DNA of 64,000 bases. Source: Escherichia phage vB_EcoM_KAW3E185. The notes under the pieces are model-generated. The model searched no databases, was not told the origin of the DNA, and saw nothing but the letters and a program-made list of their open reading frames with translations. Numbering within the stretch: position 1 is the stretch's first letter; each line of letters begins with the position of its first letter. A program made the position numbers and the translations under genes. Shown here piece by piece: positions 2,520 to 50,574 of the stretch. The DNA lies in the sequence record MK373782.1. One strand, written 5' to 3'.

Positions 2520-3620
2520 TTACGCTGTGAAGATTTTATCCCACATCGCAACAACTGCATCTCGGTTATACTTCTTCCATACTGCTTCAGCACGTTTAAC
2601 TCGAGCTTCGTATGTGTCAGTGAATTCTAATACAGCTTTTGTGTAAAGCGCAACTACTTCTTTCTTAGGAGTAGAGGAATCAATTTCTACACGCACAGTA
2701 TCTGGGTCGTATTCAAATGTCGCATGAGGATAATCCTTAAAAACTAACTGGATTACAGGGACACCTTTAGAGATGGCTTCAATAGAACTATTCTCTACCG
2801 TACCTGTGTCAGGACACGTATTAATAAGTGCTTTAGCTGTTTTAAGGCGTTCCATGATTTCACTGTGTGGAGCATCAATAATAACAGGATATTTAGCCGG
2901 TGGTGCCCATTTGCTTGGACAGTATCCTACACCATTTTCGCCTAGTGCTTTAATCGCTTCAAGAGCAACATCAGTACGACGCATTTTAGTGTCATAACGT
3001 TGTGCACTAATAATCAGATCAGTCGCCGGAAGAACTTCAGGTTTCTCATTCAAACAAATAACCGGATAATCTTCGGTTTCAAACAACGGATTTGCTCGCC
3101 AATAATCATAATCAATTTTGTCAGTCAGACCTGAAGTCATATAACAATATTTGCGTTCAAATTCACGGAAGGCTTTAGTAGGAGCATAACTCTTACCACC
3201 GTTCTTACGAATTTGAATAGTCTGGTCCCAAATTTGAACAATGCCACGAGATACTGGTTCAAATGGTGTTGCCATAAAATTCTTATGAACTTTAGAGAGA
3301 CCTGCGTCTTTAATTGCCTGAACGGTTAGTTTAGTCGGTTCCATAGTAACAACAAAATCGTATTCATGGATGCCGGCTAGTTCAACAATCTTACGAGCCA
3401 TAGTATAACTCATACCTAGACTGAATTTAGTCAGATGACCAACAGGATGATGATTAACCTTCCAATCACCAAATGTGTCATTATCAAAACCGATATAATC
3501 AATATCGGCACCGATGGACACAAGATATTTCAACACATTTAAATGTACTGCTTCAAGACCACCTTGTACACGTTCTGGGTTAAATGGGACTGCACGAGAT
3601 GGGATAAACATAACTTTCAT
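2520..3620 (-). CDS. putative GT-B fold (GT4-like) glycosyltransferase, 366 aa
   Basis: N-terminal MKVMFIPSRAVPF...GGLEAVHLNVLKYL and C-terminal ...TGTVENSSIEAISKGVPVI resemble GT4 donor-binding motifs; occupies the slot where T4 has gene 60/mobA. Confidence 0.5.
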   Translation of the reverse strand: MKVMFIPSRAVPFNPERVQGGLEAVHLNVLKYLVSIGADIDYIGFDNDTFGDWKVNHHPVGHLTKFSLGMSYTMARKIVELAGIHEYDFVVTMEPTKLTVQAIKDAGLSKVHKNFMATPFEPVSRGIVQIWDQTIQIRKNGGKSYAPTKAFREFERKYCYMTSGLTDKIDYDYWRANPLFETEDYPVICLNEKPEVLPATDLIISAQRYDTKMRRTDVALEAIKALGENGVGYCPSKWAPPAKYPVIIDAPHSEIMERLKTAKALINTCPDTGTVENSSIEAISKGVPVIQLVFKDYPHATFEYDPDTVRVEIDSSTPKKEVVALYTKAVLEFTDTYEARVKRAEAVWKKYNRDAVVAMWDKIFTA

Positions 3621-3640
3621 AATTAAGCCTTATTAAAATT

Positions 3641-3664
3641 AAAATGAAGCTCCCGAAGGAGCTT
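3641..3664 (-). terminator. hairpin aagctcc-UUCG-ggagctt followed by U-rich tract on minus transcript
   Basis: Perfect 7-bp stem with UUCG loop overlapping the gene 39 stop codon, followed by cattttaatttt; coordinates approximate. Confidence 0.5.
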
Positions 3665-5480
3665 AGGACATCCATTCTTTACGAAGTTCTGAATCATCAC
3701 CCATCAACATTTCAAAGAGTTCTTTCCAATTTTCAGGAAGTTTAACTACGTCGTACACAGGGTTCTGAATCATTTCACGATATTCTGACTTTTCAAGGGA
3801 GCCTAATCCCTTGATGTATCGAATACTATGCTTAGGCAGTGTATCTTTAACTTCTTCATACTCAGCTACAGTATAAAACCATTTTTGAGCTTTGCCAATT
3901 TGTGCAATAATTACAGGTGTTTTAACAAAGCGAATACGTCCTTGTTCAAACAATTCAGGCCAATTACTAAAGAAAGCAAGCAAAGCCGGATAGATACTTC
4001 CAAGACCGTCATGATCGGCATCAGTCATAATTGCAATATTACGATAGTTCGTATTCTCTGCCTTTTCACCAAGAATAAGACCCGTGATAGCACAGATATC
4101 AAAGAGCTCTTTGTTCTTCATCATATCAGCATATGACATACCCCAGCTATTCATCACCTTACCACGTAATGGGAATCCGCCGTGTAGTTCACGGTCACGA
4201 ACATCAATGAGATAACCAATTGCCGAATCACCTTCTGTTAAAAACAATGTCGTATCTGCATCTTTACCACATTGGTTAGCTTTAATATGCTTATGAACCT
4301 TAGCTTTAGTTGCCTTTTTAGCTGCTTTAGTTTCTGCAGCCTTTTCTGCTGCCAATTTACGAGCTAATGCTGCTTCAACAATAGGCATAATCAAGGCTTC
4401 GTTTTTAAGAAGTGCCTGAGCAATTTTCTTAGCATCTAATTGGATATGATTACGAATATCACCATACGTTGACGTTAAACGTTCTTTAGTCTGAGAATCA
4501 AAACGCATGTTGCTCATGTCTCTAATAAACATCAACATTGTGAGACATTCTTTAACACGAGCTTTAGTGACTTCAATACCCTTATATTTCTTTTTAATAC
4601 CAGGCAAAAGATGTTCACAGATATCATCCATTACACATTCAACATGATGACCACCATTTTTAGTATGGATGTTATTCACATAAGTTAAATGACGGAAGCC
4701 ATCTGGTGATGTTGTGAATGCTATAGAGACTTTATCATTTTCTTGAATGATGTTATCTTCGCCAAATTGTTTAGCAAATCGTTTAAAATTACCATCAACC
4801 TTTTTACCATTAAATGTGAACTTGATATCAGGATAAACGACTGCCAATGTTTGAAGTCTGTCTAAAGTAATATCTAAATAAATTTGAGATAAATTATGCT
4901 CTTCAAATGAAGAGAAATCAGGAGTGAAGATTACTTTAGTGCCTTTACATTTAGATTTCTTAGAAGACCATGATTTGTTTTCCATTCCGTTTGAACAGTT
5001 AACAGTGATTTCATTTTCGCCATCTGACGTGATGCCTGTAAACAACGTAGAGAAGATATTAGTTAAACTACTCCCGACGCCGTTCATACCACCAGTCTTG
5101 CGTTCAGAATCATCACCAAAGTTACCACCAGCCTTTGGAATAGTCCAGGCTGCTACAGGCCCAGGAATTTGTTCACCTGTTTGGTCGGTAACTAAACCTT
5201 GAGGAATACCACGTCCGTTATCTTCCACCGAAACTTGATTATTTTTAATTTGCACATCAATTTTATTTGCAAACTTAAATGATGTACGAATAGATTCATC
5301 AACCGAGTTGTCAATAATCTCATCGATTAATTTAACCAGACCAGGAACATATTCAACTTGTTGATATTTACCAAACAAAAAACGCTCATGTGCTTCTTTA
5401 GCAGAAGAACCAATATACATACCACTACGTTTCTTAATATGTTCTACATCTGACAATACCTTAATTTCATTTTTAATCAT
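3663..5480 (-). CDS. 39: DNA topoisomerase II large (ATPase) subunit, unsplit 605-aa form
   Basis: GHKL ATPase motifs (GLVKLIDEIIDNSVDE, GGMNGVGSS); length equals the fused gp39+gp60 form known from T2/T6-type phages. Confidence 0.9.
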   Translation of the reverse strand: MIKNEIKVLSDVEHIKKRSGMYIGSSAKEAHERFLFGKYQQVEYVPGLVKLIDEIIDNSVDESIRTSFKFANKIDVQIKNNQVSVEDNGRGIPQGLVTDQTGEQIPGPVAAWTIPKAGGNFGDDSERKTGGMNGVGSSLTNIFSTLFTGITSDGENEITVNCSNGMENKSWSSKKSKCKGTKVIFTPDFSSFEEHNLSQIYLDITLDRLQTLAVVYPDIKFTFNGKKVDGNFKRFAKQFGEDNIIQENDKVSIAFTTSPDGFRHLTYVNNIHTKNGGHHVECVMDDICEHLLPGIKKKYKGIEVTKARVKECLTMLMFIRDMSNMRFDSQTKERLTSTYGDIRNHIQLDAKKIAQALLKNEALIMPIVEAALARKLAAEKAAETKAAKKATKAKVHKHIKANQCGKDADTTLFLTEGDSAIGYLIDVRDRELHGGFPLRGKVMNSWGMSYADMMKNKELFDICAITGLILGEKAENTNYRNIAIMTDADHDGLGSIYPALLAFFSNWPELFEQGRIRFVKTPVIIAQIGKAQKWFYTVAEYEEVKDTLPKHSIRYIKGLGSLEKSEYREMIQNPVYDVVKLPENWKELFEMLMGDDSELRKEWMS

Positions 5481-43902: not shown

Positions 43903-44081
43903 GACTTAATTTCCTTCGCAATTGAACAGAAGATACCACGGTCACAAAGCATTTCACCAATTTCTGGATATTTGATTGAATGGTACCAAACATCCAGGCT
44001 TGAAACTCTGGTTATCTGTACTGCATTACCGTTGACAGAATAGTACTGGTCAACCTTAATTTCTTTATCTTCAATTGTCAT
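43899..44081 (-). CDS. small hypothetical protein (about 60 aa)
   Basis: Track ORF 43899-44243; start chosen at Met55 with GAGGAAA Shine-Dalgarno below the promoter. Confidence 0.4.
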   Translation of the reverse strand: MTIEDKEIKVDQYYSVNGNAVQITRVSSLDVWYHSIKYPEIGEMLCDRGIFCSIAKEIKS

Positions 44082-44109
44082 TTTATTTTCCTCTATAGTA
44101 GATGGTTTA

Positions 44110-44138
44110 ATCTTAACACATTTATTGAGGATGTAAAC
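44110..44138 (-). promoter_or_regulatory. early promoter (-35 GTTTAC, 17 nt, -10 TAAGAT)
   Basis: Hexamers on minus strand; coordinates approximate. Confidence 0.4.
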
Positions 44139-44247
44139 TGTTTTATGAAAATATTTTTTGATTTGAGAGGGGCACAAGGAGATAGTGAAGTGAAGATTCC
44201 AATGGATTATATTAGAAATGAGATAAAGAAGACCAGGCGGCACCTGG

Positions 44248-44700
44248 TCAATCTTCTATGATATCAGAGTCATATCCTAATGAAATCAAGGACTTTTTAA
44301 ACTCTGCAATATTCTTTTGTTTCTTATCATTTAAAAATATGACAGGATAACGAATATTAAGTGAAGTGAATCCTGCACGTTTAGCAAGAGATACGATTAA
44401 AGGACGGTCATATTCAATCTTACCATTATTAGTGAGGACTTTATAAAATGTATAAGGAGCATTGAGCTCCTTTAAAAGTTTTGTAACAGTATAACATCCT
44501 GGACAACGTCCAACTTCTTCAGGGATGCCATAAATTTCAATCTTGTTCTTTAAGTTCGAGTTTTGTTCCACGAGAAATAATTCCTTGGTAAGCCCAATAA
44601 GGAGGATTAACAGAATCCTCACCAGAGTTTTCTTCAGGAAAATAAACCTGGATAACGAAGCCGGATTCATCAAAGGTAAAATAAACCGTAGGCAATTCAC
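44248..44700 (-). CDS. glutaredoxin/NrdH-like redoxin (CPGC active site); true start probably internal
   Basis: EIYGIPEEVGRCPGCYTV thioredoxin-fold motif; 5' third of the track ORF overlaps the upstream gene and has no in-frame ATG near the expected start. Confidence 0.45.
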   Translation of the reverse strand: MNCLRFILPLMNPASLSRFIFLKKTLVRILLILLIGLTKELFLVEQNSNLKNKIEIYGIPEEVGRCPGCYTVTKLLKELNAPYTFYKVLTNNGKIEYDRPLIVSLAKRAGFTSLNIRYPVIFLNDKKQKNIAEFKKSLISLGYDSDIIED

Positions 44701-44854
44701 CTAACAATTCGGCACGAGCATTAATTTCTTCTAGATCTCGTTCACGTCCAGCCCAAAAACTAGGATTTAGATTACATTCGTAAAAATAATAGTCATTACC
44801 GAACATATCAAAACCCTTCCAACTCTCTACCACATACCGCTCAAAACTAATCAT
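44537..44854 (-). CDS. hypothetical protein (105 aa)
   Basis: ORF on gene strand. Confidence 0.45.
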   Translation of the reverse strand: MISFERYVVESWKGFDMFGNDYYFYECNLNPSFWAGRERDLEEINARAELLGELPTVYFTFDESGFVIQVYFPEENSGEDSVNPPYWAYQGIISRGTKLELKEQD

Positions 44855-44856
44855 AA

Positions 44857-45072
44857 TTAAGCCTTTTTATCAAGAACAGAATTCAGTTTATTAGTAATTT
44901 TGTCCAAACGTTCATTGAATTCGCTGGAGGATAAACCCTTTTCTGGAGAAATTAAACTAATCACGAAAAATACACCAGTAAAAGGAATAAGAAAAATAGC
45001 TCCAACTGCCATAAACAGAAAGAATGTTACAGTTGTAAGAAAATCAGCTAAACCTTTACGAAATTTATACAT
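44857..45072 (-). CDS. small membrane protein (71 aa)
   Basis: Hydrophobic segments FFLFMAVGAIFLIPFTGVFFVISLI. Confidence 0.45.
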   Translation of the reverse strand: MYKFRKGLADFLTTVTFFLFMAVGAIFLIPFTGVFFVISLISPEKGLSSSEFNERLDKITNKLNSVLDKKA

Positions 45073-45084
45073 TTACATTTACCT

Positions 45085-45198
45085 TTAATTGATTAACCAA
45101 GCATTGATAATCATTAAACTATATTGCGAATAAAATTCTGGACCAAAACGAAAAATCATATCATTTATAGTATCCATAATGTAATTCAATTTAATCAT
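45085..45198 (-). CDS. small hypothetical protein (about 37 aa)
   Basis: Track ORF 45085-45309 overlaps nrdG; start chosen at the Met overlapping the nrdG stop; uncertain. Confidence 0.25.
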   Translation of the reverse strand: MIKLNYIMDTINDMIFRFGPEFYSQYSLMIINAWLIN

Positions 45199-45661
45199 GT
45201 TTCCACACCCCATCGGTATTTGACCAAAGTCGCTGATTATCTGATCCTCGCCACAGCTTTTTAGTCGGAAGATTTTTCTCATACTTCCCATCAATAATAA
45301 CATCAACATATTTAAGCATTTCTAGTTGTTTAATATCTTCAAACTTATATCCTGTCCACAACCAAATGCTTTTATTGGGATAAAGATTTTTTACTGTTTG
45401 AGCAATGCGATGAATAACATCTCGGTTATCAGGATAGAGAGGGTCTCCTCCGGTTATAGTTAATCCTTCTATATAATCATTATTCAAACATTCAATCAAT
45501 TGTTCTAGTGTCTCTCCAGTGAATGGAATACCATTTCTAGCATTCCATGTTGATTTATTATAACACCCTTCACATTTATGCAAACAACCTGTAACGAAAA
45601 GAACGACCCTGCATCCAGGGCCATTCACAAAGCAGCACGGGTATATTCTGTCATAATTCAT
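45191..45661 (-). CDS. nrdG: anaerobic ribonucleotide reductase activating protein NrdG (radical SAM)
   Basis: CxxxCxxC cluster motif CLHKCEGC; start chosen at Met8 because the first listed codon is not ATG. Confidence 0.8.
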   Translation of the reverse strand: MNYDRIYPCCFVNGPGCRVVLFVTGCLHKCEGCYNKSTWNARNGIPFTGETLEQLIECLNNDYIEGLTITGGDPLYPDNRDVIHRIAQTVKNLYPNKSIWLWTGYKFEDIKQLEMLKYVDVIIDGKYEKNLPTKKLWRGSDNQRLWSNTDGVWKHD

Positions 45662-46488
45662 AATAATATCCAATTTTTCCAAGCTTCATCAGTAGAATTA
45701 CAGCGTTTTAGTATAAGATGTCTAGAAACTTTTATGGCATTTGAGCACTTTTTAATTGAATCATACTTAATACCGTCAACTGAAACGGTTTTGCTAGTTG
45801 GAGAAATTTTTCCATACATTGGATTTTTTGAACCAACTTGAAGTCCTTTTAAAGCTTTTGAAAGCTTTTGTCTAGATTCCAATGACATGGGAGAATTCTT
45901 TTTACCTTCAATAATTCGCTTGCGATGAAGTTCGCGTTCTTCTTCACTCAAAGAATTGTAATATTTTTTAACACCGTTTGATATAGATAATTTATCTTTC
46001 TCAGACCGCTCTCCAGCTAATTTACTTCTAACATCTTTTCGCTTCATAGCTATGCTTACGGCTTTATTTAAATTTGCTTGATGCTCTGGCGTACGTTTAT
46101 ATTTCTTTAAAGCACGTGAAATAGCTATTTTAGTTTCTTCTGTTCTCTTTTTACCTTTATTTGCTAAACTATTTTTGCGGCGATGTTCAAGTGTCTGTTC
46201 ATAGGCAGTTCCACCTTTTCCACCAGGTTTAATATTATATGTATTTTCTTTTAGACAATACTCTTCGGTTACGAGTTCAGCTTCTTTATCATACATTTGC
46301 TTTTCATTATCAAAAACATATAAAATTTCTTTATAAAAATTTTTTCTACCATATTTTAATAAAGCAGCACGAATCAATGTTCCTGATCCCATATAACCGT
46401 CATTTATGTTATCGGTGCTATGCGCACCGATATATTCCTTTGAATTAATTATATTTGTTATTTTATAAATTATATAATACCTATGCAT
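45658..46488 (-). CDS. free-standing GIY-YIG homing endonuclease (Seg/Mob-like), 276 aa
   Basis: N-terminal YIIYKITN...KEYIGAHS GIY-YIG motif; repeated basic helix (NUMOD-like) modules; stop overlaps the nrdG start. Confidence 0.7.
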   Translation of the reverse strand: MHRYYIIYKITNIINSKEYIGAHSTDNINDGYMGSGTLIRAALLKYGRKNFYKEILYVFDNEKQMYDKEAELVTEEYCLKENTYNIKPGGKGGTAYEQTLEHRRKNSLANKGKKRTEETKIAISRALKKYKRTPEHQANLNKAVSIAMKRKDVRSKLAGERSEKDKLSISNGVKKYYNSLSEEERELHRKRIIEGKKNSPMSLESRQKLSKALKGLQVGSKNPMYGKISPTSKTVSVDGIKYDSIKKCSNAIKVSRHLILKRCNSTDEAWKNWILL

Positions 46489-47760
46489 GTTTTACTCGTT
46501 TTACCATTTCTTTCATTTTACCTAAATTCCATGGGACAACGCTAGGAGTTCCAAGATATCCGCATGTTCTTCTTATGGTATTCATCTTTTTAGGATCAGT
46601 TTCTCCACAAATAGAACAAACAAATCCGTTTTCAGTAGGAGTCATTTCATGGGTACTTCCACATGTAAAACATTTATCCACTGGCATATTAACACCAAAA
46701 TAATCTAAATGTTGTGCAGCATAATCCCAGACGGCCTCAAGCCCCTTTAAATTGTTTTTCATATCTGGAAGTTCAACATAAGAAATGTGACCGCCTGTCG
46801 CAATGAAATGATATGGGGCTTCGCGAGAAATCTTTTCAAACGGAGTGATATTTTCTTCTACTGAAACATGGAAACTGTTAGTGTACCATCCTTTATCGGT
46901 AACATCTTTTACACTTCCATATTTTTCAGTATCAAGTTTACAGAAGCGATAGCAAAGGTTTTCAGCAGGAGTAGAATACAAGCTAAAAGCAAAACCGGTT
47001 CTTTCGGTCCACTGCTTAAGACGAGCATTCATTTTAGTTAAAATTTCTTGTCCAATATCACGACCGACAAGAATATTCAATTCGTGAATACCGATGTATC
47101 CTAGGGACACTGAACTTCTACCGTTTTTAAATAACTCAATTATATCATCATCAGGTTTAAGACGGACCCCAAATGCACCTTCTTGGTAAAGAATAGGAGC
47201 AACAGTAGCTTTAACTCCTTTTAAGGAACTAATTCTACACATCAAGGCTTCAAAGCACAGATCCATTCGTTCATTAAATAACTCAACAAATTTCTGTTCA
47301 TTGAACTGTGTTCCAATATAAGAATCTAACGCGATGCGAGGAAGATTCAGTGTTACAACGCCAAGATTATTACGTCCATCAAGAATTTCATTACCAGTCG
47401 AATCTTTCCATACACTCAAGAAACTACGGCAGCCCATTGGAGAAACAGGAACTGAAGAACCGGTAATAGCTTTATTATTCTTAACCGAAATAATGTCAGG
47501 ATACATTCTTTTGCTTGCACATTCTAACGCAAGTTGTTTAATATCATAGTTCGGATCATCTTTATAAAGATTAACACCTTCTTCAACAAACATAACAAGT
47601 TTAGGAAAAATAGGAGTTATTCCATCACGACCAAGACCTTTAATGCGGTTTTTAAGAATTGCCTTCTGAATCATTCGTTCAGTCCAGTCAGTTCCCGTAC
47701 CAAATGTAATTGTTACAAAAGGCGTTTGTCCGTTTGAACTAAAGAGAGTATTTACTTCAT
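46481..47760 (-). CDS. nrdD: anaerobic ribonucleoside-triphosphate reductase NrdD, exon 2
   Basis: C-terminal glycyl-radical motif RRTCGYLG and Cys cluster CFTCGS...CSICG; exon boundary placed so that the spliced product is 605 aa. Confidence 0.8.
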
Positions 47761-48805
47761 CATTATATTCAGCATGAGTCGCAAATTCATGCTCGTTTAT
47801 ATGAAACAACAAAATTTGGATAGTCCATAGATATGCAACGTTCTTTTATAGTGCTAGGATGAAAATTTAGCGCTTTAGCTGCTTCTATATAAGACGTATA
47901 CTTAATACCGTCAACAACCACATATTCAGGAACTTTATGAATAGTAGTCTTAATACTCAAAACAAGAGGATGAGTTTCGACTTCACTTTCAGTGCAATTT
48001 AAATATTCCGCTGCTTTTTTAAAACTTCTAAAAGTTTTATTTTTAAGCTTTATCGATACTTGTTTTTTACTTTTTCGACTATTGATATTATTTTGCACAT
48101 GTTCCTTAGATCTTCCGTTTTTAGCATAATATTCAGCTACAGAAGATTTTATATTGTTTTTATGAGATTCGGATAACACTTTACCCTTATGAGCATCTCT
48201 TAATTTTTGAATATGTTCTTCAGTATCCGGATGCTTATAAAACTTTTTACCGCCTATGGATTTATTTAAACATTTTTTGCTATAAAAATATTTACGTATG
48301 ACCTCTTCTTCATGTTTTAATGCATCTTTATAACTATCAAATGTTTTTAAAATTATCCATTTAGTAGGTGTATCAGTTTTTAAGCGTTCATTTATATACT
48401 TAGATGACGTTGTGTAAGTTTTCCAGTTTGTGGGCTTATTTTTAATTGTTCTAAATTTTTTATAACCGATATAAATGTCGCCATTAGAAAACTTAACTAA
48501 GTATGTAAATGCGTCTTTATCTTTTATTTTAGTACAACGTCTTTTTATCCATTTCATTGTTTCACCTCGTATTCATAAGATAATCTTATTTATACAAGAT
48601 GACTGCTGCATGTCGCCATGCAGATTAGACTATATCTTCATCTTTCGATGCCGGCCGTTTCGAATAGCATTAGCTTCTATTCTACACCGCTACATTCATC
48701 ACGGTTAGTCGTTAGGCATTTAGTTCAAAAGAACATTTAGCACGGGATTGTCTACTAGAGAGGTTCCCCGTTTAGACCGGTTTTACATGAGCCTGAATTA
48801 AATTA
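47761..48805 (-). mobile_element. group I intron in nrdD (about 1045 nt) carrying a homing-endonuclease ORF
   Basis: nrdD reading frame is interrupted; exon 1 ends in U and the intron ends in G; GC-rich conserved core CUAAACGGGGAACCUCUCUAGUAGACAAUCCCGUGCUAAAU; splicing restores ...AFQAYE-YEVNTLF... Confidence 0.65.
47787..48557 (-). CDS. intron-encoded GIY-YIG homing endonuclease (I-TevII-like), 256 aa
   Basis: FTYLVKFSNGDIYIGYKKF GIY-YIG motif; located entirely within the nrdD intron. Confidence 0.7.
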   Translation of the reverse strand: MKWIKRRCTKIKDKDAFTYLVKFSNGDIYIGYKKFRTIKNKPTNWKTYTTSSKYINERLKTDTPTKWIILKTFDSYKDALKHEEEVIRKYFYSKKCLNKSIGGKKFYKHPDTEEHIQKLRDAHKGKVLSESHKNNIKSSVAEYYAKNGRSKEHVQNNINSRKSKKQVSIKLKNKTFRSFKKAAEYLNCTESEVETHPLVLSIKTTIHKVPEYVVVDGIKYTSYIEAAKALNFHPSTIKERCISMDYPNFVVSYKRA

Positions 48806-49343
48806 ACTCATACGCCTGGAATGCGTCATAGACATCTTTTTCTGTTTTAGATTGAGCATAATTCAACGCATCAGCGATTTGCCATTTTTCTGCATCCTCA
48901 ATATGTTTTGCATAGGTGCGTTTAACATAAGGAGAAAGTACTTTATCTACATTAGCAAAAGTCGTTCCGCCGTATTGATGGGAAGCAACTTGTGCAGTAA
49001 TTTGTGCCATAATTGCAGTAGCAACACCAATAGATTTAGGCGTTTCAATTTGAGCATTGCCTAATTTAAATCCATTCTCAAGCATCCCCTTTAAATCGAC
49101 TAAACAGCAATTGGTAAACGGAAGAGCAGGAGAATAATCAATATCATGCATGTGAATGATTCCGCGTTCATGCGCATTCATAATAAAAGACGGGACCATA
49201 TTTTTGGCAATGTGTTTAGACACAATACCAGCCATAAGGTCCCGTTGAGTTGGAAAAACACGAGAATCTTTATTAGCATTCTCGTTCAAAAGATCTTTAT
49301 TAGTTTTATAAATTAATCCTTCAATTTCTTTTTCAATTTTCAT
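48806..49343 (-). CDS. nrdD: anaerobic ribonucleoside-triphosphate reductase NrdD, exon 1
   Basis: N-terminal NrdD sequence MKIEKEIEGLIYKTNKDLL...; the track ORF runs 3 codons into the intron before a stop. Confidence 0.8.
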
Positions 49344-49813
49344 TTTAAACTCTTTCTAAGCTGCTTTTTGAATGAAGCTATTAATTGTGTTTTAGTATCG
49401 GATTCATTATATTCAAATCCTCTTTGAAGCATCTCGGACATCATTTCCTCTTTACCTAGTCTTGAGAACTCTTTAGTTTTGTCTGGAACAAAATTAGGAT
49501 GGATATTATTATCAGAATAATCTTGTTTCAAATAAGCAAGAAGAGATTCAAGCCATTCGAGGTAATCAACGTTTTGACCTTTAAGACCAGAACGGTTGAA
49601 CTTATGCTTCATTTGACCTTCTGCTGTGTTGCACAGATTACAGAGTAACCCACGAACTCTACCGGCTTTTGGCCCGTTTAATTCGTGGTCGTGGTCAAGA
49701 TGGTTACCTTGAACATCAGGGTCTAATTCACGGTGGCAAATAGGACACTTACCGTTCTGTGCATCATAAAATTTTTGTTTTTCTTCTTTATATTTTGCGC
49801 CTGATAATAACAT
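49340..49813 (-). CDS. 49: endonuclease VII (Holliday junction resolvase) gp49, 157 aa
   Basis: Zinc-binding CPICHRE...HLDHDHELNG...CNLCN matches T4 endo VII as I recall it. Confidence 0.9.
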   Translation of the reverse strand: MLLSGAKYKEEKQKFYDAQNGKCPICHRELDPDVQGNHLDHDHELNGPKAGRVRGLLCNLCNTAEGQMKHKFNRSGLKGQNVDYLEWLESLLAYLKQDYSDNNIHPNFVPDKTKEFSRLGKEEMMSEMLQRGFEYNESDTKTQLIASFKKQLRKSLK

Positions 49814-49848
49814 GATAAACCCTTACCTTAAATAGATAAGGGTATTTA

Positions 49849-50274
49849 TTAACTTAAACGTCTTTCTAAATATTCAATGTATTCTGCGGCTGCTTGCATC
49901 AGGTTACCTTCATAGCCGTCGTTATTTTCTTGTCCGGCTAATTTAGCTAATGCATAAGAAATTCGTTCACCTTCGAATTCGCCAAGTTTACTACCTAGCA
50001 CATCCGCAATATCAGCCGAATCAATTTCTTCGAGTTCATCTATTGAATGTGATTCCCAGAAGCACCAAAGAGAAGTATCACGGTCATAGATGCAAAGTTT
50101 CTCACCAGTGTTCAACATCACTTCAATAATGCCATGGTCGCCATAACCATCTTCGGTCGTAGTACCAATTACCTTGATGATTGTTCCTTTCTTTAATTCA
50201 GGAAACTTGACTTGTAGTTCTTCATCTTCTTTAACAATCTTGAACCATTTACCACGTGTGTCAGAAATATTCAT
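49849..50274 (-). CDS. hypothetical acidic protein (141 aa) at the pin position
   Basis: Positional only. Confidence 0.4.
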   Translation of the reverse strand: MNISDTRGKWFKIVKEDEELQVKFPELKKGTIIKVIGTTTEDGYGDHGIIEVMLNTGEKLCIYDRDTSLWCFWESHSIDELEEIDSADIADVLGSKLGEFEGERISYALAKLAGQENNDGYEGNLMQAAAEYIEYLERRLS

Positions 50275-50275
50275 A

Positions 50276-50473
50276 TCAATATCCTCTATAAAAGTTGCGA
50301 TGCGTGCGTTTCGCTTTGCGAAGCTGACGTTTAGTTGGTCGAACCGTAAATGGTCGTCCGGAGAAAAAATTTGGTTCAGTTTTAATCAACACATACCAAT
50401 CGTGTTCGCCACTTTTTAATAAACGGTATAACAATTTAACTTGCATAATAATCTCTTCCCATTTCCAAATCAA
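50276..50473 (-). CDS. small protein with basic RPTKRQLR tail (65 aa)
   Basis: Tail motif FTVRPTKRQLRKAKR shared with ORF 19965-20177. Confidence 0.45.
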   Translation of the reverse strand: MIWKWEEIIMQVKLLYRLLKSGEHDWYVLIKTEPNFFSGRPFTVRPTKRQLRKAKRTHRNFYRGY

Positions 50474-50574
50474 TCATATCGTTTACTGTAGGTTCATCAT
50501 AACACGTTTCTTCGTCGTTGTAAACTGTTTCGACGTCTGGCTCGACAGTTTCCCATCGAGCCGAATACCATGGC

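What the first reader, a model, noticed from the sequence alone, without database searches (positions are those of the whole stretch)
45658..46488. Free-standing GIY-YIG endonuclease wedged between nrdG and nrdD
A 276-aa GIY-YIG enzyme with repeated basic helix modules lies between the two anaerobic RNR genes, and its stop overlaps the nrdG start. With the intron endonuclease about 1.3 kb away, the anaerobic RNR locus carries two independent homing endonucleases, which marks it as a hot spot for mobile-element traffic and marker exclusion.
Basis: partly seen in the sequence, partly recalled or inferred. Interest (0 to 1): 0.45.

Follow-up and report, generated by a model that had tools for sequence, protein, structure and literature searches.

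The report
Known phage homing endonuclease gene segH

Summary
The 276-codon ORF at 45658-46488 (- strand) is real. Its ATG overlaps the nrdD stop by 8 nt, and its TGA shares an ATGA with the nrdG start. It differs at 2 of 276 residues from SegH of phage RB3 (GenBank AY262138). SegH is the free-standing GIY-YIG homing endonuclease named by Sandegren, Nord and Sjöberg (NAR 2005) that replaces T4 mobC between nrdD and nrdG.

Both motif Tyr, the Glu and the Asn are present. The I-TevI helix that carries Arg27 is missing, as it is in T4 SegA, D, E and F.

72 of 50,697 public phage records carry segH, and 15 also carry the same nrdD intron and its ORF.

segH travels with a recoded 74-nt nrdD tail that starts right after the glycyl-radical motif. 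A Moonvirus phage has this cassette at 92-95% identity inside flanking genes that are only 72% identical, which indicates lateral transfer.

The intron ORF 1.3 kb away is a second, separately spreading endonuclease. Verdict: already known, low interest.

The parts
45658..46488 (-). segH ORF, 276 aa plus TGA
   Evidence: ORF list. 99.3% nt identity to RB3 and 99.2% to LZ2 records annotated segH. 2 aa differences from RB3 SegH and 8 from T6 SegH.
46210..46488 (-). GIY-YIG catalytic domain (aa 1-93): Y8 and Y19-I20-G21 motifs, E69/E71, N85
45793..46209 (-). Basic helical linker (aa 94-232) with about six NUMOD3-like modules
   Evidence: Six predicted helices, H100-110 to H203-213. NUMOD3 33.8 bits, 3 stretches at a lenient threshold. 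36 K+R in 139 residues.
45661..45792 (-). C-terminal DNA-binding domain of the I-TevI type (aa 233-276)
46481..46488 (-). 8-nt overlap of the segH ATG with the end of nrdD (ATGCATAG)
   Evidence: Sequence. No late-promoter consensus near segH and no significant RNA structure around the start.
46489..46562 (-). Recoded nrdD tail that travels with segH. It begins right after the glycyl-radical motif RRTCGYLG and encodes TPSVVPWNLGKMKEMVKRVKHA instead of NPNERGFNLGKNKEIMHRVKHQ
   Evidence: 62-65% identical to empty-site and T4 alleles but 96-99% identical among segH+ phages, while upstream nrdD is about 94% identical to all of them. Found in 80 phage records against 72 with segH.
45658..45661 (-). 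ATGA overlap of the segH stop and the nrdG start
   Evidence: Sequence. Empty sites have the same ATGA between nrdD and nrdG.
45621..45660 (-). First 40 nt of nrdG, carrying segH-linked substitutions (8 of 40 differ from empty alleles)
   Evidence: 80% identity to empty alleles against 97.5% to segH+ alleles. In KM16 the high-identity tract runs on to about 45565.
45191..45661 (-). nrdG (anaerobic RNR activase), downstream neighbour
   Evidence: Fer4_12 E 2e-48. Start read from the sequence.
46481..47760 (-). nrdD exon 2, upstream neighbour
   Evidence: NRDD and Gly_radical Pfam hits. Boundary from alignment with the intron-less RB3 nrdD.
47761..48805 (-). Group I intron in nrdD (1,045 nt), at the same site as the T4 nrdD intron
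   Evidence: RF00028 71.6 bits, E 6e-18, at 48837-48606. Boundaries from alignment with RB3 and T4.
47787..48557 (-). Intron ORF, 256 aa, an I-TevII-like GIY-YIG endonuclease with a late promoter TATAAATA at 48594-48587
   Evidence: 56% aa identity to T4 I-TevII, E 1e-101. SegE_GIY-YIG and NUMOD1 Pfam hits. Promoter match.

Best explanation
This is segH, a free-standing GIY-YIG homing endonuclease gene of T-even-type phages. It occupies the nrdD/nrdG junction, the site where T4 carries the unrelated HNH gene mobC.

The protein has three parts: an N-terminal GIY-YIG nuclease domain, a basic linker of about six NUMOD3-like helices, and a C-terminal I-TevI-type DNA-binding domain.

Inferred mechanism. 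segH has no promoter consensus of its own and overlaps nrdD by 8 nt, so it is probably made at a low level from the nrdD-nrdG message by reinitiation. In a mixed infection the enzyme binds and cuts the anaerobic-RNR locus of a co-infecting phage near the nrdD 3' end / nrdG 5' end. Recombinational repair from the segH+ genome then copies in segH, the recoded last 25 codons of nrdD and the first codons of nrdG. This excludes the rival's local markers.

Shown here: identity with SegH, the fold, conservation under purifying selection, patchy distribution, the cassette boundaries, and transfer into a different genus.

Inferred only: actual cleavage, the position of the cut, and the mode of expression.
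For: Identity: 99.3% nt and 274/276 aa identity to RB3 SegH, at the same locus. T4 has mobC at that place. [quoted passage not shown]

Conserved core: Y8, Y19, G21, E69, N85 and others are invariant in 40 homologs. 35 of the 40 match PF19835 and 26 match PF01541.

Selection: dN/dS is 0.17 against KM16, and 0.12-0.21 in each of the three domains.

Mobility: segH is in 72 records, against 894 whose best match to the 3.2-kb segH-to-intron stretch is at least 90% identical. The cassette is 99% identical between phages whose nrdD is about 94% identical. In the Moonvirus phage KM16, nrdD and nrdG are 72% identical to the window, but the nrdD tail is 94.6%, segH 91.8% and the first 40 nt of nrdG 92.5% identical; the high-identity tract runs about 95 nt into nrdG, and the whole tract is about 46595..45565.

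Target: homologs at 47-48% identity in distant T4-like phages also sit directly downstream of nrdD. This points to a lineage-wide target at the nrdD 3' end.
Against: Nothing here shows cleavage, and the primary SegH paper could not be read.

Alone, the sequence does not reach the curated cut-offs for GIY-YIG models: PF19835 15.3 bits against 25, and TIGR01453 50.8 against 56.05.

The I-TevI helix carrying the catalytic Arg27 falls in a gap. R40 on the next helix is not conserved in the family.

The register of the catalytic Glu is ambiguous: E69 or E71 against I-TevI E75.

The cut site is inferred only from where the linked substitutions cluster.
Confidence: 0.9

Rival explanations
1. The gene is a decaying, catalytically dead remnant of a homing endonuclease that merely persists between nrdD and nrdG.
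For: No canonical Arg27-type helix. The single sequence scores below the curated GIY-YIG cut-offs. Two substitutions relative to RB3 SegH lie in the catalytic domain, Y52N and Y57H.
Against: The ORF is full length. All family-invariant residues are kept. dN/dS is 0.12-0.21 in each of the three domains. The missing helix is shared with T4 SegA, D, E and F; the Edgell review (PMC2988022) lists SegA and SegE as active, SegD as not determined, and the text retrieved breaks off before SegF's entry. Positions 52 and 57 vary across the family.
Confidence: 0.05
2. The protein has been domesticated. It acts mainly as a DNA-binding regulator of the nrd operon, as I-TevI represses its own promoter, or the ORF serves chiefly to couple nrdG translation to upstream ribosomes. 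Mobility would then be secondary.
For: The ATGA overlap with nrdG and the 8-nt overlap with nrdD embed segH in the operon. It has an I-TevI-like DNA-binding domain. It has no promoter of its own.
Against: Empty sites already couple nrdD to nrdG through the same ATGA, so nrdG does not need segH. About 90% of related phages lack segH. The cassette shows lateral transfer across genera. The nuclease core is conserved.
Confidence: 0.04
3. segH and the nrdD intron move as one unit. A SegH break drags the intron 1.2 kb away into recipients by long co-conversion, as mobE does for the nrdB intron in T4.
For: The window-type intron is enriched among segH+ records: 15 of 72 against 28 of 822, odds ratio 7.5, Fisher p 2e-7. 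Trans homing by mobE is documented (PMC2790892).
Against: Against phage F2, the two elements are separate islands of 99.6% and 99.1% identity with a 94.3% identical exon between them. RB3, T6 and KM16 have segH without the intron. The tract transferred into KM16 is only about 1 kb. The enrichment is not corrected for phylogeny or for duplicate records.
Confidence: 0.1

Closest known systems
SegH of phages RB3, LZ2 and T6 (Sandegren, Nord and Sjöberg, Nucleic Acids Res 2005; GenBank AY262138, AY262139, AY262137)
   Same: Same gene. 274/276 aa identical to RB3 SegH and 268/276 to T6 SegH. Same position between nrdD and nrdG, the same overlaps, and the same recoded nrdD tail.
   Different: Two substitutions, Y52N and Y57H. 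RB3 has no nrdD intron, whereas this phage has one 1.3 kb upstream. That combination is itself present in 15 public records, for example phage F2.
T4 SegD, SegE and SegA (free-standing GIY-YIG paralogs)
   Same: Same domain order and the same short loop H-S/A-T...NDGY-x-GSG in place of the I-TevI Arg27 helix. In the multiple alignment, identity is 38% to SegD, 32% to SegE and 31% to SegA. BLASTP against SegD gives 32% identity, E 5e-36.
   Different: Different insertion sites and targets. SegH has a longer NUMOD3 linker, 276 aa against 205-223 aa.
I-TevI (td intron endonuclease; PDB 1MK0, 1LN0, 1I3J)
   Same: Best structural match for both the catalytic and the DNA-binding domain. Modular nuclease-linker-binding layout.
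   Different: I-TevI is intron-encoded. It has an extra helix carrying R27, which falls in a gap against SegH. From my own knowledge rather than any test here, its linker holds a zinc finger; SegH's linker is NUMOD3 helices. Sequence identity is about 24%.
T4 MobC
   Same: Occupies the same nrdD/nrdG junction. Found in 32 phage records.
   Different: HNH family with no sequence similarity to SegH. It is linked to the standard nrdD tail in T4 and to an nrdG allele only about 70% identical to the one here.
I-TevII (T4 nrdD intron endonuclease)
   Same: The neighbouring intron ORF is its homolog, at the same nrdD insertion site.
   Different: Only 56% aa identity. It is a different gene from segH; in the multiple alignment the window intron ORF is 26% and T4 I-TevII 23% identical to SegH.

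Membership tests
SegH (Sandegren et al. 2005) | Sequence identity with the deposited SegH proteins | tested here: met
   274/276 aa identical to RB3 ABI48949 and 268/276 to T6 ABI48947. 99.3% nt identity.
SegH (Sandegren et al. 2005) | Located between nrdD and nrdG in place of T4 mobC | tested here: met
SegH (Sandegren et al. 2005) | Site-specific cleavage near its own locus, and homing in mixed infections | not testable with these tools
   This needs an experiment. The primary paper is not in the library.
GIY-YIG nuclease superfamily | GIY and YIG motifs on the first two strands | tested here: met
   Y8 (in IIY) and Y19-I20-G21 align with I-TevI Y6 and Y17-V18-G19. They are invariant in 40 homologs.
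GIY-YIG nuclease superfamily | Catalytic Arg on the helix after strand 2 (I-TevI R27) | tested here: inconclusive
   I-TevI residues 22-30 fall in a gap. R40 lies on the next helix but is R, K or another residue in homologs. T4 SegA, D, E and F share the deletion. A residue-level superposition was not possible because model coordinates are not exposed.
GIY-YIG nuclease superfamily | Metal-binding Glu (I-TevI E75) and Asn (N90) | tested here: met
   E69 is invariant and E71 is at least 90% conserved. They flank the column of E75, so the register is off by one either way. N85 aligns with N90 and is invariant.
GIY-YIG nuclease superfamily | Three-stranded sheet with flanking helices (the fold) | tested here: met
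GIY-YIG nuclease superfamily | Curated HMM cut-offs (PF19835, PF01541, TIGR01453) | tested here: not met
   PF19835 scores 15.3 bits against a cut-off of 25 and PF01541 gives no hit. TIGR01453 scores 50.8 against 56.05. However, 35 of 40 homologs match PF19835 and 26 of 40 match PF01541 at E<0.001.
I-TevI-like modular homing endonucleases | NUMOD-type linker plus a C-terminal helix-turn-helix DNA-binding domain | tested here: met
   NUMOD3 scores 33.8 bits, above its 20.4 cut-off. PF20987 scores 21.1 bits, below its 27 cut-off, but Foldseek gives probability 1.0 to 1I3J.
Free-standing homing endonuclease gene (intronless homing) | Not inside an intron or intein | tested here: met
   The ends overlap the nrdD stop and the nrdG start. 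The only intron RNA match in the region is in nrdD at 48837-48606.
Free-standing homing endonuclease gene (intronless homing) | Patchy presence among close relatives, and higher conservation than the flanking genes | tested here: met
   72 records against 894 whose best match to the 3.2-kb segH-to-intron stretch is at least 90% identical. The cassette is 99% identical where nrdD is 94%. In KM16 it is 92-95% identical where the flanks are 72%.

The most novel reading that the evidence does not exclude
The mobile unit is not the ORF alone. It is a cassette of about 1 kb (about 46595-45565) that brings its own recoded end of nrdD, starting exactly after the glycyl-radical codons RRTCGYLG, and its own start of nrdG.

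If SegH recognises the invariant glycyl-radical-coding DNA, the recoded tail could be a linked resistance or compatibility allele. That would explain three things seen here: the tail also occurs with mobC in SHFML-11, the cassette crossed into a Moonvirus, and 47%-identical relatives in distant phages keep the same address downstream of nrdD.

Part of this may already be in the 2005 paper, which I could not read.
Probability: 0.3. Interest if true: 0.35.

Novelty: already known. Interest (0 to 1): 0.12.

Why it matters
For discovery it matters little. The gene, its family, its locus, and even its co-occurrence with the nrdD intron are all in the literature or in annotated public genomes.

It has some practical value.
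- It corrects annotation drift: the RB3 to RB10 genomes call the gene 'segD', and phage F2 annotates a 5'-truncated SegH.
- It delimits the transferred cassette and its recoded nrdD tail.
- It gives a clean natural example of two endonuclease elements spreading separately within 3 kb of an essential-pathway operon.

Tried and rejected
- The primary SegH paper (doi 10.1093/nar/gki932, PMC1275590) is not held. Six of the citing papers I checked list it only in their references; the seventh, the Edgell 2010 review, gives only the general statements quoted in the report. So the mapped cleavage site could not be compared with the recoded block.
- A single-sequence search of PDB sequences gave only noise. 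Single-sequence Pfam did not report a GIY-YIG domain. A profile of homologs, hhalign and fold searches were needed.
- The first Rfam scan at gathering threshold over 44000-50500 found nothing. A scan of the shorter stretch found the group I intron at 71.6 bits, above its gathering score. The first negative was therefore a filter effect.
- I looked for segH's own expression signals. There is no TATAAATA near it: the only nearby match is upstream of the intron ORF. Sigma-70-like sites are fewer than in shuffles. RNA folding around the start is not significant, z -1.6, and the AUG is unpaired.
- I considered the 10-mer CATGCATAGG as an insertion footprint. It is shared between the empty-site nrdD tail and the nrdD/segH overlap here. 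The two NrdD tails align codon for codon at equal length with R-V-K-H conserved, so the 10-mers sit at non-homologous positions. This is left unexplained.
- I tested whether segH and the intron arrived as one tract. This is rejected for the F2 comparison.

Full report
**The observation**

The window is a T-even-type phage genome. On the - strand the order is gene 55, several small ORFs, nrdH, nrdG, the ORF in question, nrdD exon 2, an intron with an ORF, nrdD exon 1, and gene 49. The ORF runs 46488 to 45658 and encodes 276 aa. Its ATG lies 8 nt inside nrdD (ATGCATAG). Its TGA shares ATGA with the nrdG start codon. The intron ORF ends 1,299 nt upstream of the segH start. G+C is slightly lower across the ORF (0.30-0.33) than in nrdD (0.36-0.37).

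**What it is**

A megablast of the ORF against 50,697 phage records finds 72 records. Among them are GenBank AY262138 (RB3, 99.3% nt identity) and AY262139 (LZ2, 99.2%), both annotated 'segH: SegH homing endonuclease' and flanked by nrdD and nrdG. T6 has a third such record. The protein differs from RB3 SegH at two residues (Y52N, Y57H) and from T6 SegH at eight.

[quoted passage not shown] That paper is not in the library. What I say about its content beyond the title is recollection. [quoted passage not shown] The T4 record shows mobC (HNH, 210 aa) at this exact site.

**Family and fold**

Alone, the sequence matches:
- NUMOD3 at 33.8 bits, above its cut-off;
- the I-TevI DNA-binding domain at 21.1 bits, below its cut-off;
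- SegE_GIY-YIG at only 15.3 bits, below its cut-off;
- TIGR01453 'group I intron endonuclease' over residues 7-274 at 50.8 bits, just under its 56.05 cut-off;
- PHROG 314 'homing endonuclease' at E 1.5e-60.

A database search gives 512 homologs. In a 40-sequence alignment the invariant residues are Y8, N12, Y19, G21, D30, Y32, G34, S35, G36, G47, F51, E69, V73, Y84, N85, G89 and G90. Of the 40 members, 35 match PF19835 and 26 match PF01541.

The profile's only PDB hits are the I-TevI catalytic domain entries 1MK0 and 1LN0. hhalign against I-TevI gives 93.8% probability, E 1.8e-7.

The closest T4 paralogs in the multiple alignment are SegD (38% identity), SegE (32%) and SegA (31%). BLASTP against SegD gives 32% identity, E 5e-36. 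There is no similarity to MobC.

**Catalytic residues**

Y8 and Y19-I20-G21 align with I-TevI Y6 and Y17-V18-G19, and N85 aligns with N90. For the Glu, I-TevI E75 falls between the invariant E69 and the nearly invariant E71, and every alignment is off by one either way.

The Arg is the exception. I-TevI residues 22-30, which include R27, fall in a gap. In their place SegH has the conserved loop H23-S-T-D-N-I-N-D30-G-Y32-M-G-S-G36. R40 on the following helix varies in the family.

T4 SegA, SegD, SegE and SegF have the same short loop. The review's table lists SegA and SegE as active and SegD as not determined; the text retrieved breaks off before SegF's entry. I therefore read this as a subfamily trait, not as decay. 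dN/dS against the KM16 copy is 0.17 overall and 0.12-0.21 in each domain, which indicates purifying selection on the whole protein.

**Comparative anatomy of the site**

Phages F27, JK45 and F1 have an empty junction in which the nrdD stop and the nrdG start share ATGA.

In segH+ genomes the last 74 nt of nrdD before the segH ATG (46562-46489) are only 62-65% identical to the empty and T4 alleles, but 96-99% identical among segH+ phages. Upstream nrdD is about 94% identical to all of them. The recoded part starts immediately after the glycyl-radical motif RRTCGYLG. It keeps the same length, reading TPSVVPWNLGKMKEMVKRVKHA instead of NPNERGFNLGKNKEIMHRVKHQ. The first 40 nt of nrdG also carry 8 linked differences. 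The recoded tail is found in 80 records, against 72 with segH.

One exception is SHFML-11, which has mobC (99% identical to T4 mobC) next to the segH-type tail.

The clearest evidence of mobility is Salmonella phage KM16, a Moonvirus. Its nrdD and nrdG are about 72% identical to the window. Its nrdD tail is 94.6%, its segH 91.8% and the first 40 nt of its nrdG 92.5% identical, and the near-identical stretch runs about 95 nt into nrdG. This defines a transferred tract of about 1 kb, roughly 46595 to 45565.

More distant homologs (P0004 and P0003, 47-48% identity) in T4-like contigs with a 705-aa NrdD also lie directly downstream of nrdD. The lineage has therefore kept this address. This suggests that the recognition site lies at the conserved nrdD 3' end. 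That is an inference, not a result.

**The second endonuclease**

The nrdD interruption is a true group I intron: RF00028 at 71.6 bits, E 6e-18. It spans 47761-48805 and sits at the same site as the T4 nrdD intron. The boundaries restore the reading A-Y-E-Y-E-V-N, as in the intron-less RB3 gene. Its 256-aa ORF is only 56% identical to T4 I-TevII. It has a late-promoter consensus TATAAATA 30 nt upstream.

The window-type intron occurs in 43 records, and 15 records have it together with segH, as here. Against phage F2 the intron is 99.6% identical and the segH cassette 99.1%. nrdD exon 1 is 95.1% and exon 2 is 94.3% identical. The two elements are thus separate islands of recent spread, and 'two independent homing endonucleases' is apt.

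The intron is enriched among segH+ records (odds ratio 7.5, p 2e-7). That figure is not corrected for relatedness or for duplicate records.

**Expression**

segH has no late-promoter consensus nearby. Sigma-70-like sites are not enriched. RNA folding around its start is not significant. Given the 8-nt overlap with nrdD, low-level reinitiation from the nrdD-nrdG message is the likeliest route. The Edgell review discusses this for other overlapping free-standing endonuclease genes. This step is inferred.

**Verdict**

The object is a named gene described in 2005 and already present in 72 public records, 15 of them with the same two-endonuclease arrangement. Novelty: already known. Interest: low. 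The cassette boundaries, the recoded nrdD tail after the glycyl-radical motif, the cross-genus transfer, and the subfamily-wide absence of the I-TevI Arg27 helix are the only points that go beyond routine confirmation. Some of them may already be in the paper I could not read.

Noticed in passing
window 47787-48557 (-), intron 47761-48805: The nrdD intron ORF is only 56% aa identical to T4 I-TevII, although the intron sits at the same nrdD site. This intron variant is in 43 phage records, and megablast does not link it to the T4 nrdD intron at all.
   Followed up: partly
L009 (Shigella phage SHFML-11) 948-1674: A mosaic allele: mobC (99% identical to T4 mobC) sits next to the segH-type recoded nrdD tail (97.3% identical). 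nrdG is annotated as truncated.
   Followed up: partly
L002 (T4) 3447-4539 against window 45191-45660: T4 and SHFML-11 nrdG are only about 70% nt identical to the window's nrdG, while nrdD is about 94% identical, so mobC is linked to a diverged nrdG allele. The mobC ORF begins with a duplicate of the first seven nrdG codons, MNYDRIY.
   Followed up: no
window 46410-46432: A perfect 9-bp hairpin (TATCGGTGC GCATA GCACCGATA) lies inside segH codons 19-26, which encode the YIG motif. It is the most stable local element in the RNA fold, but the overall fold is not significant.
   Followed up: no
window 46479-46488, and L006/L007/L008 nrdD tails: The 10-mer CATGCATAGG occurs at the nrdD/segH overlap here, where it encodes SegH M-H-R. 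It also occurs 12 nt upstream of the nrdD stop in empty-site phages, where it encodes NrdD M-H-R, in a different frame relative to nrdD. The window tail also contains GTAAAAC twice. It may be a footprint of the original insertion or a coincidence.
   Followed up: partly
L012 3948-4010; L015 363-425: Distant SegH homologs (47-48% identity) lie 52-53 nt downstream of nrdD. They are preceded by a hairpin GCGCC(T)TCAAT...ATTGAGGGCGC whose 3' arm covers the ribosome-binding site. L012 also has a 359-aa SegE_GIY-YIG ORF upstream of nrdD.
   Followed up: no
GenBank records KM606994-KM606999 and NC_025419 (RB3, RB5, RB6, RB7, RB9, RB10); MN864145 (F2): Annotation drift. The same gene is labelled 'segD' in the RB-series genomes. 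In F2 it is annotated as a 5'-truncated 244-aa SegH, although the full 276-aa frame is intact.
   Followed up: yes
window 44000-50500: The Rfam scan at gathering threshold over 6.5 kb missed the group I intron. A scan of 1.2 kb then found it at 71.6 bits, above the family's gathering score of 50.
   Followed up: yes
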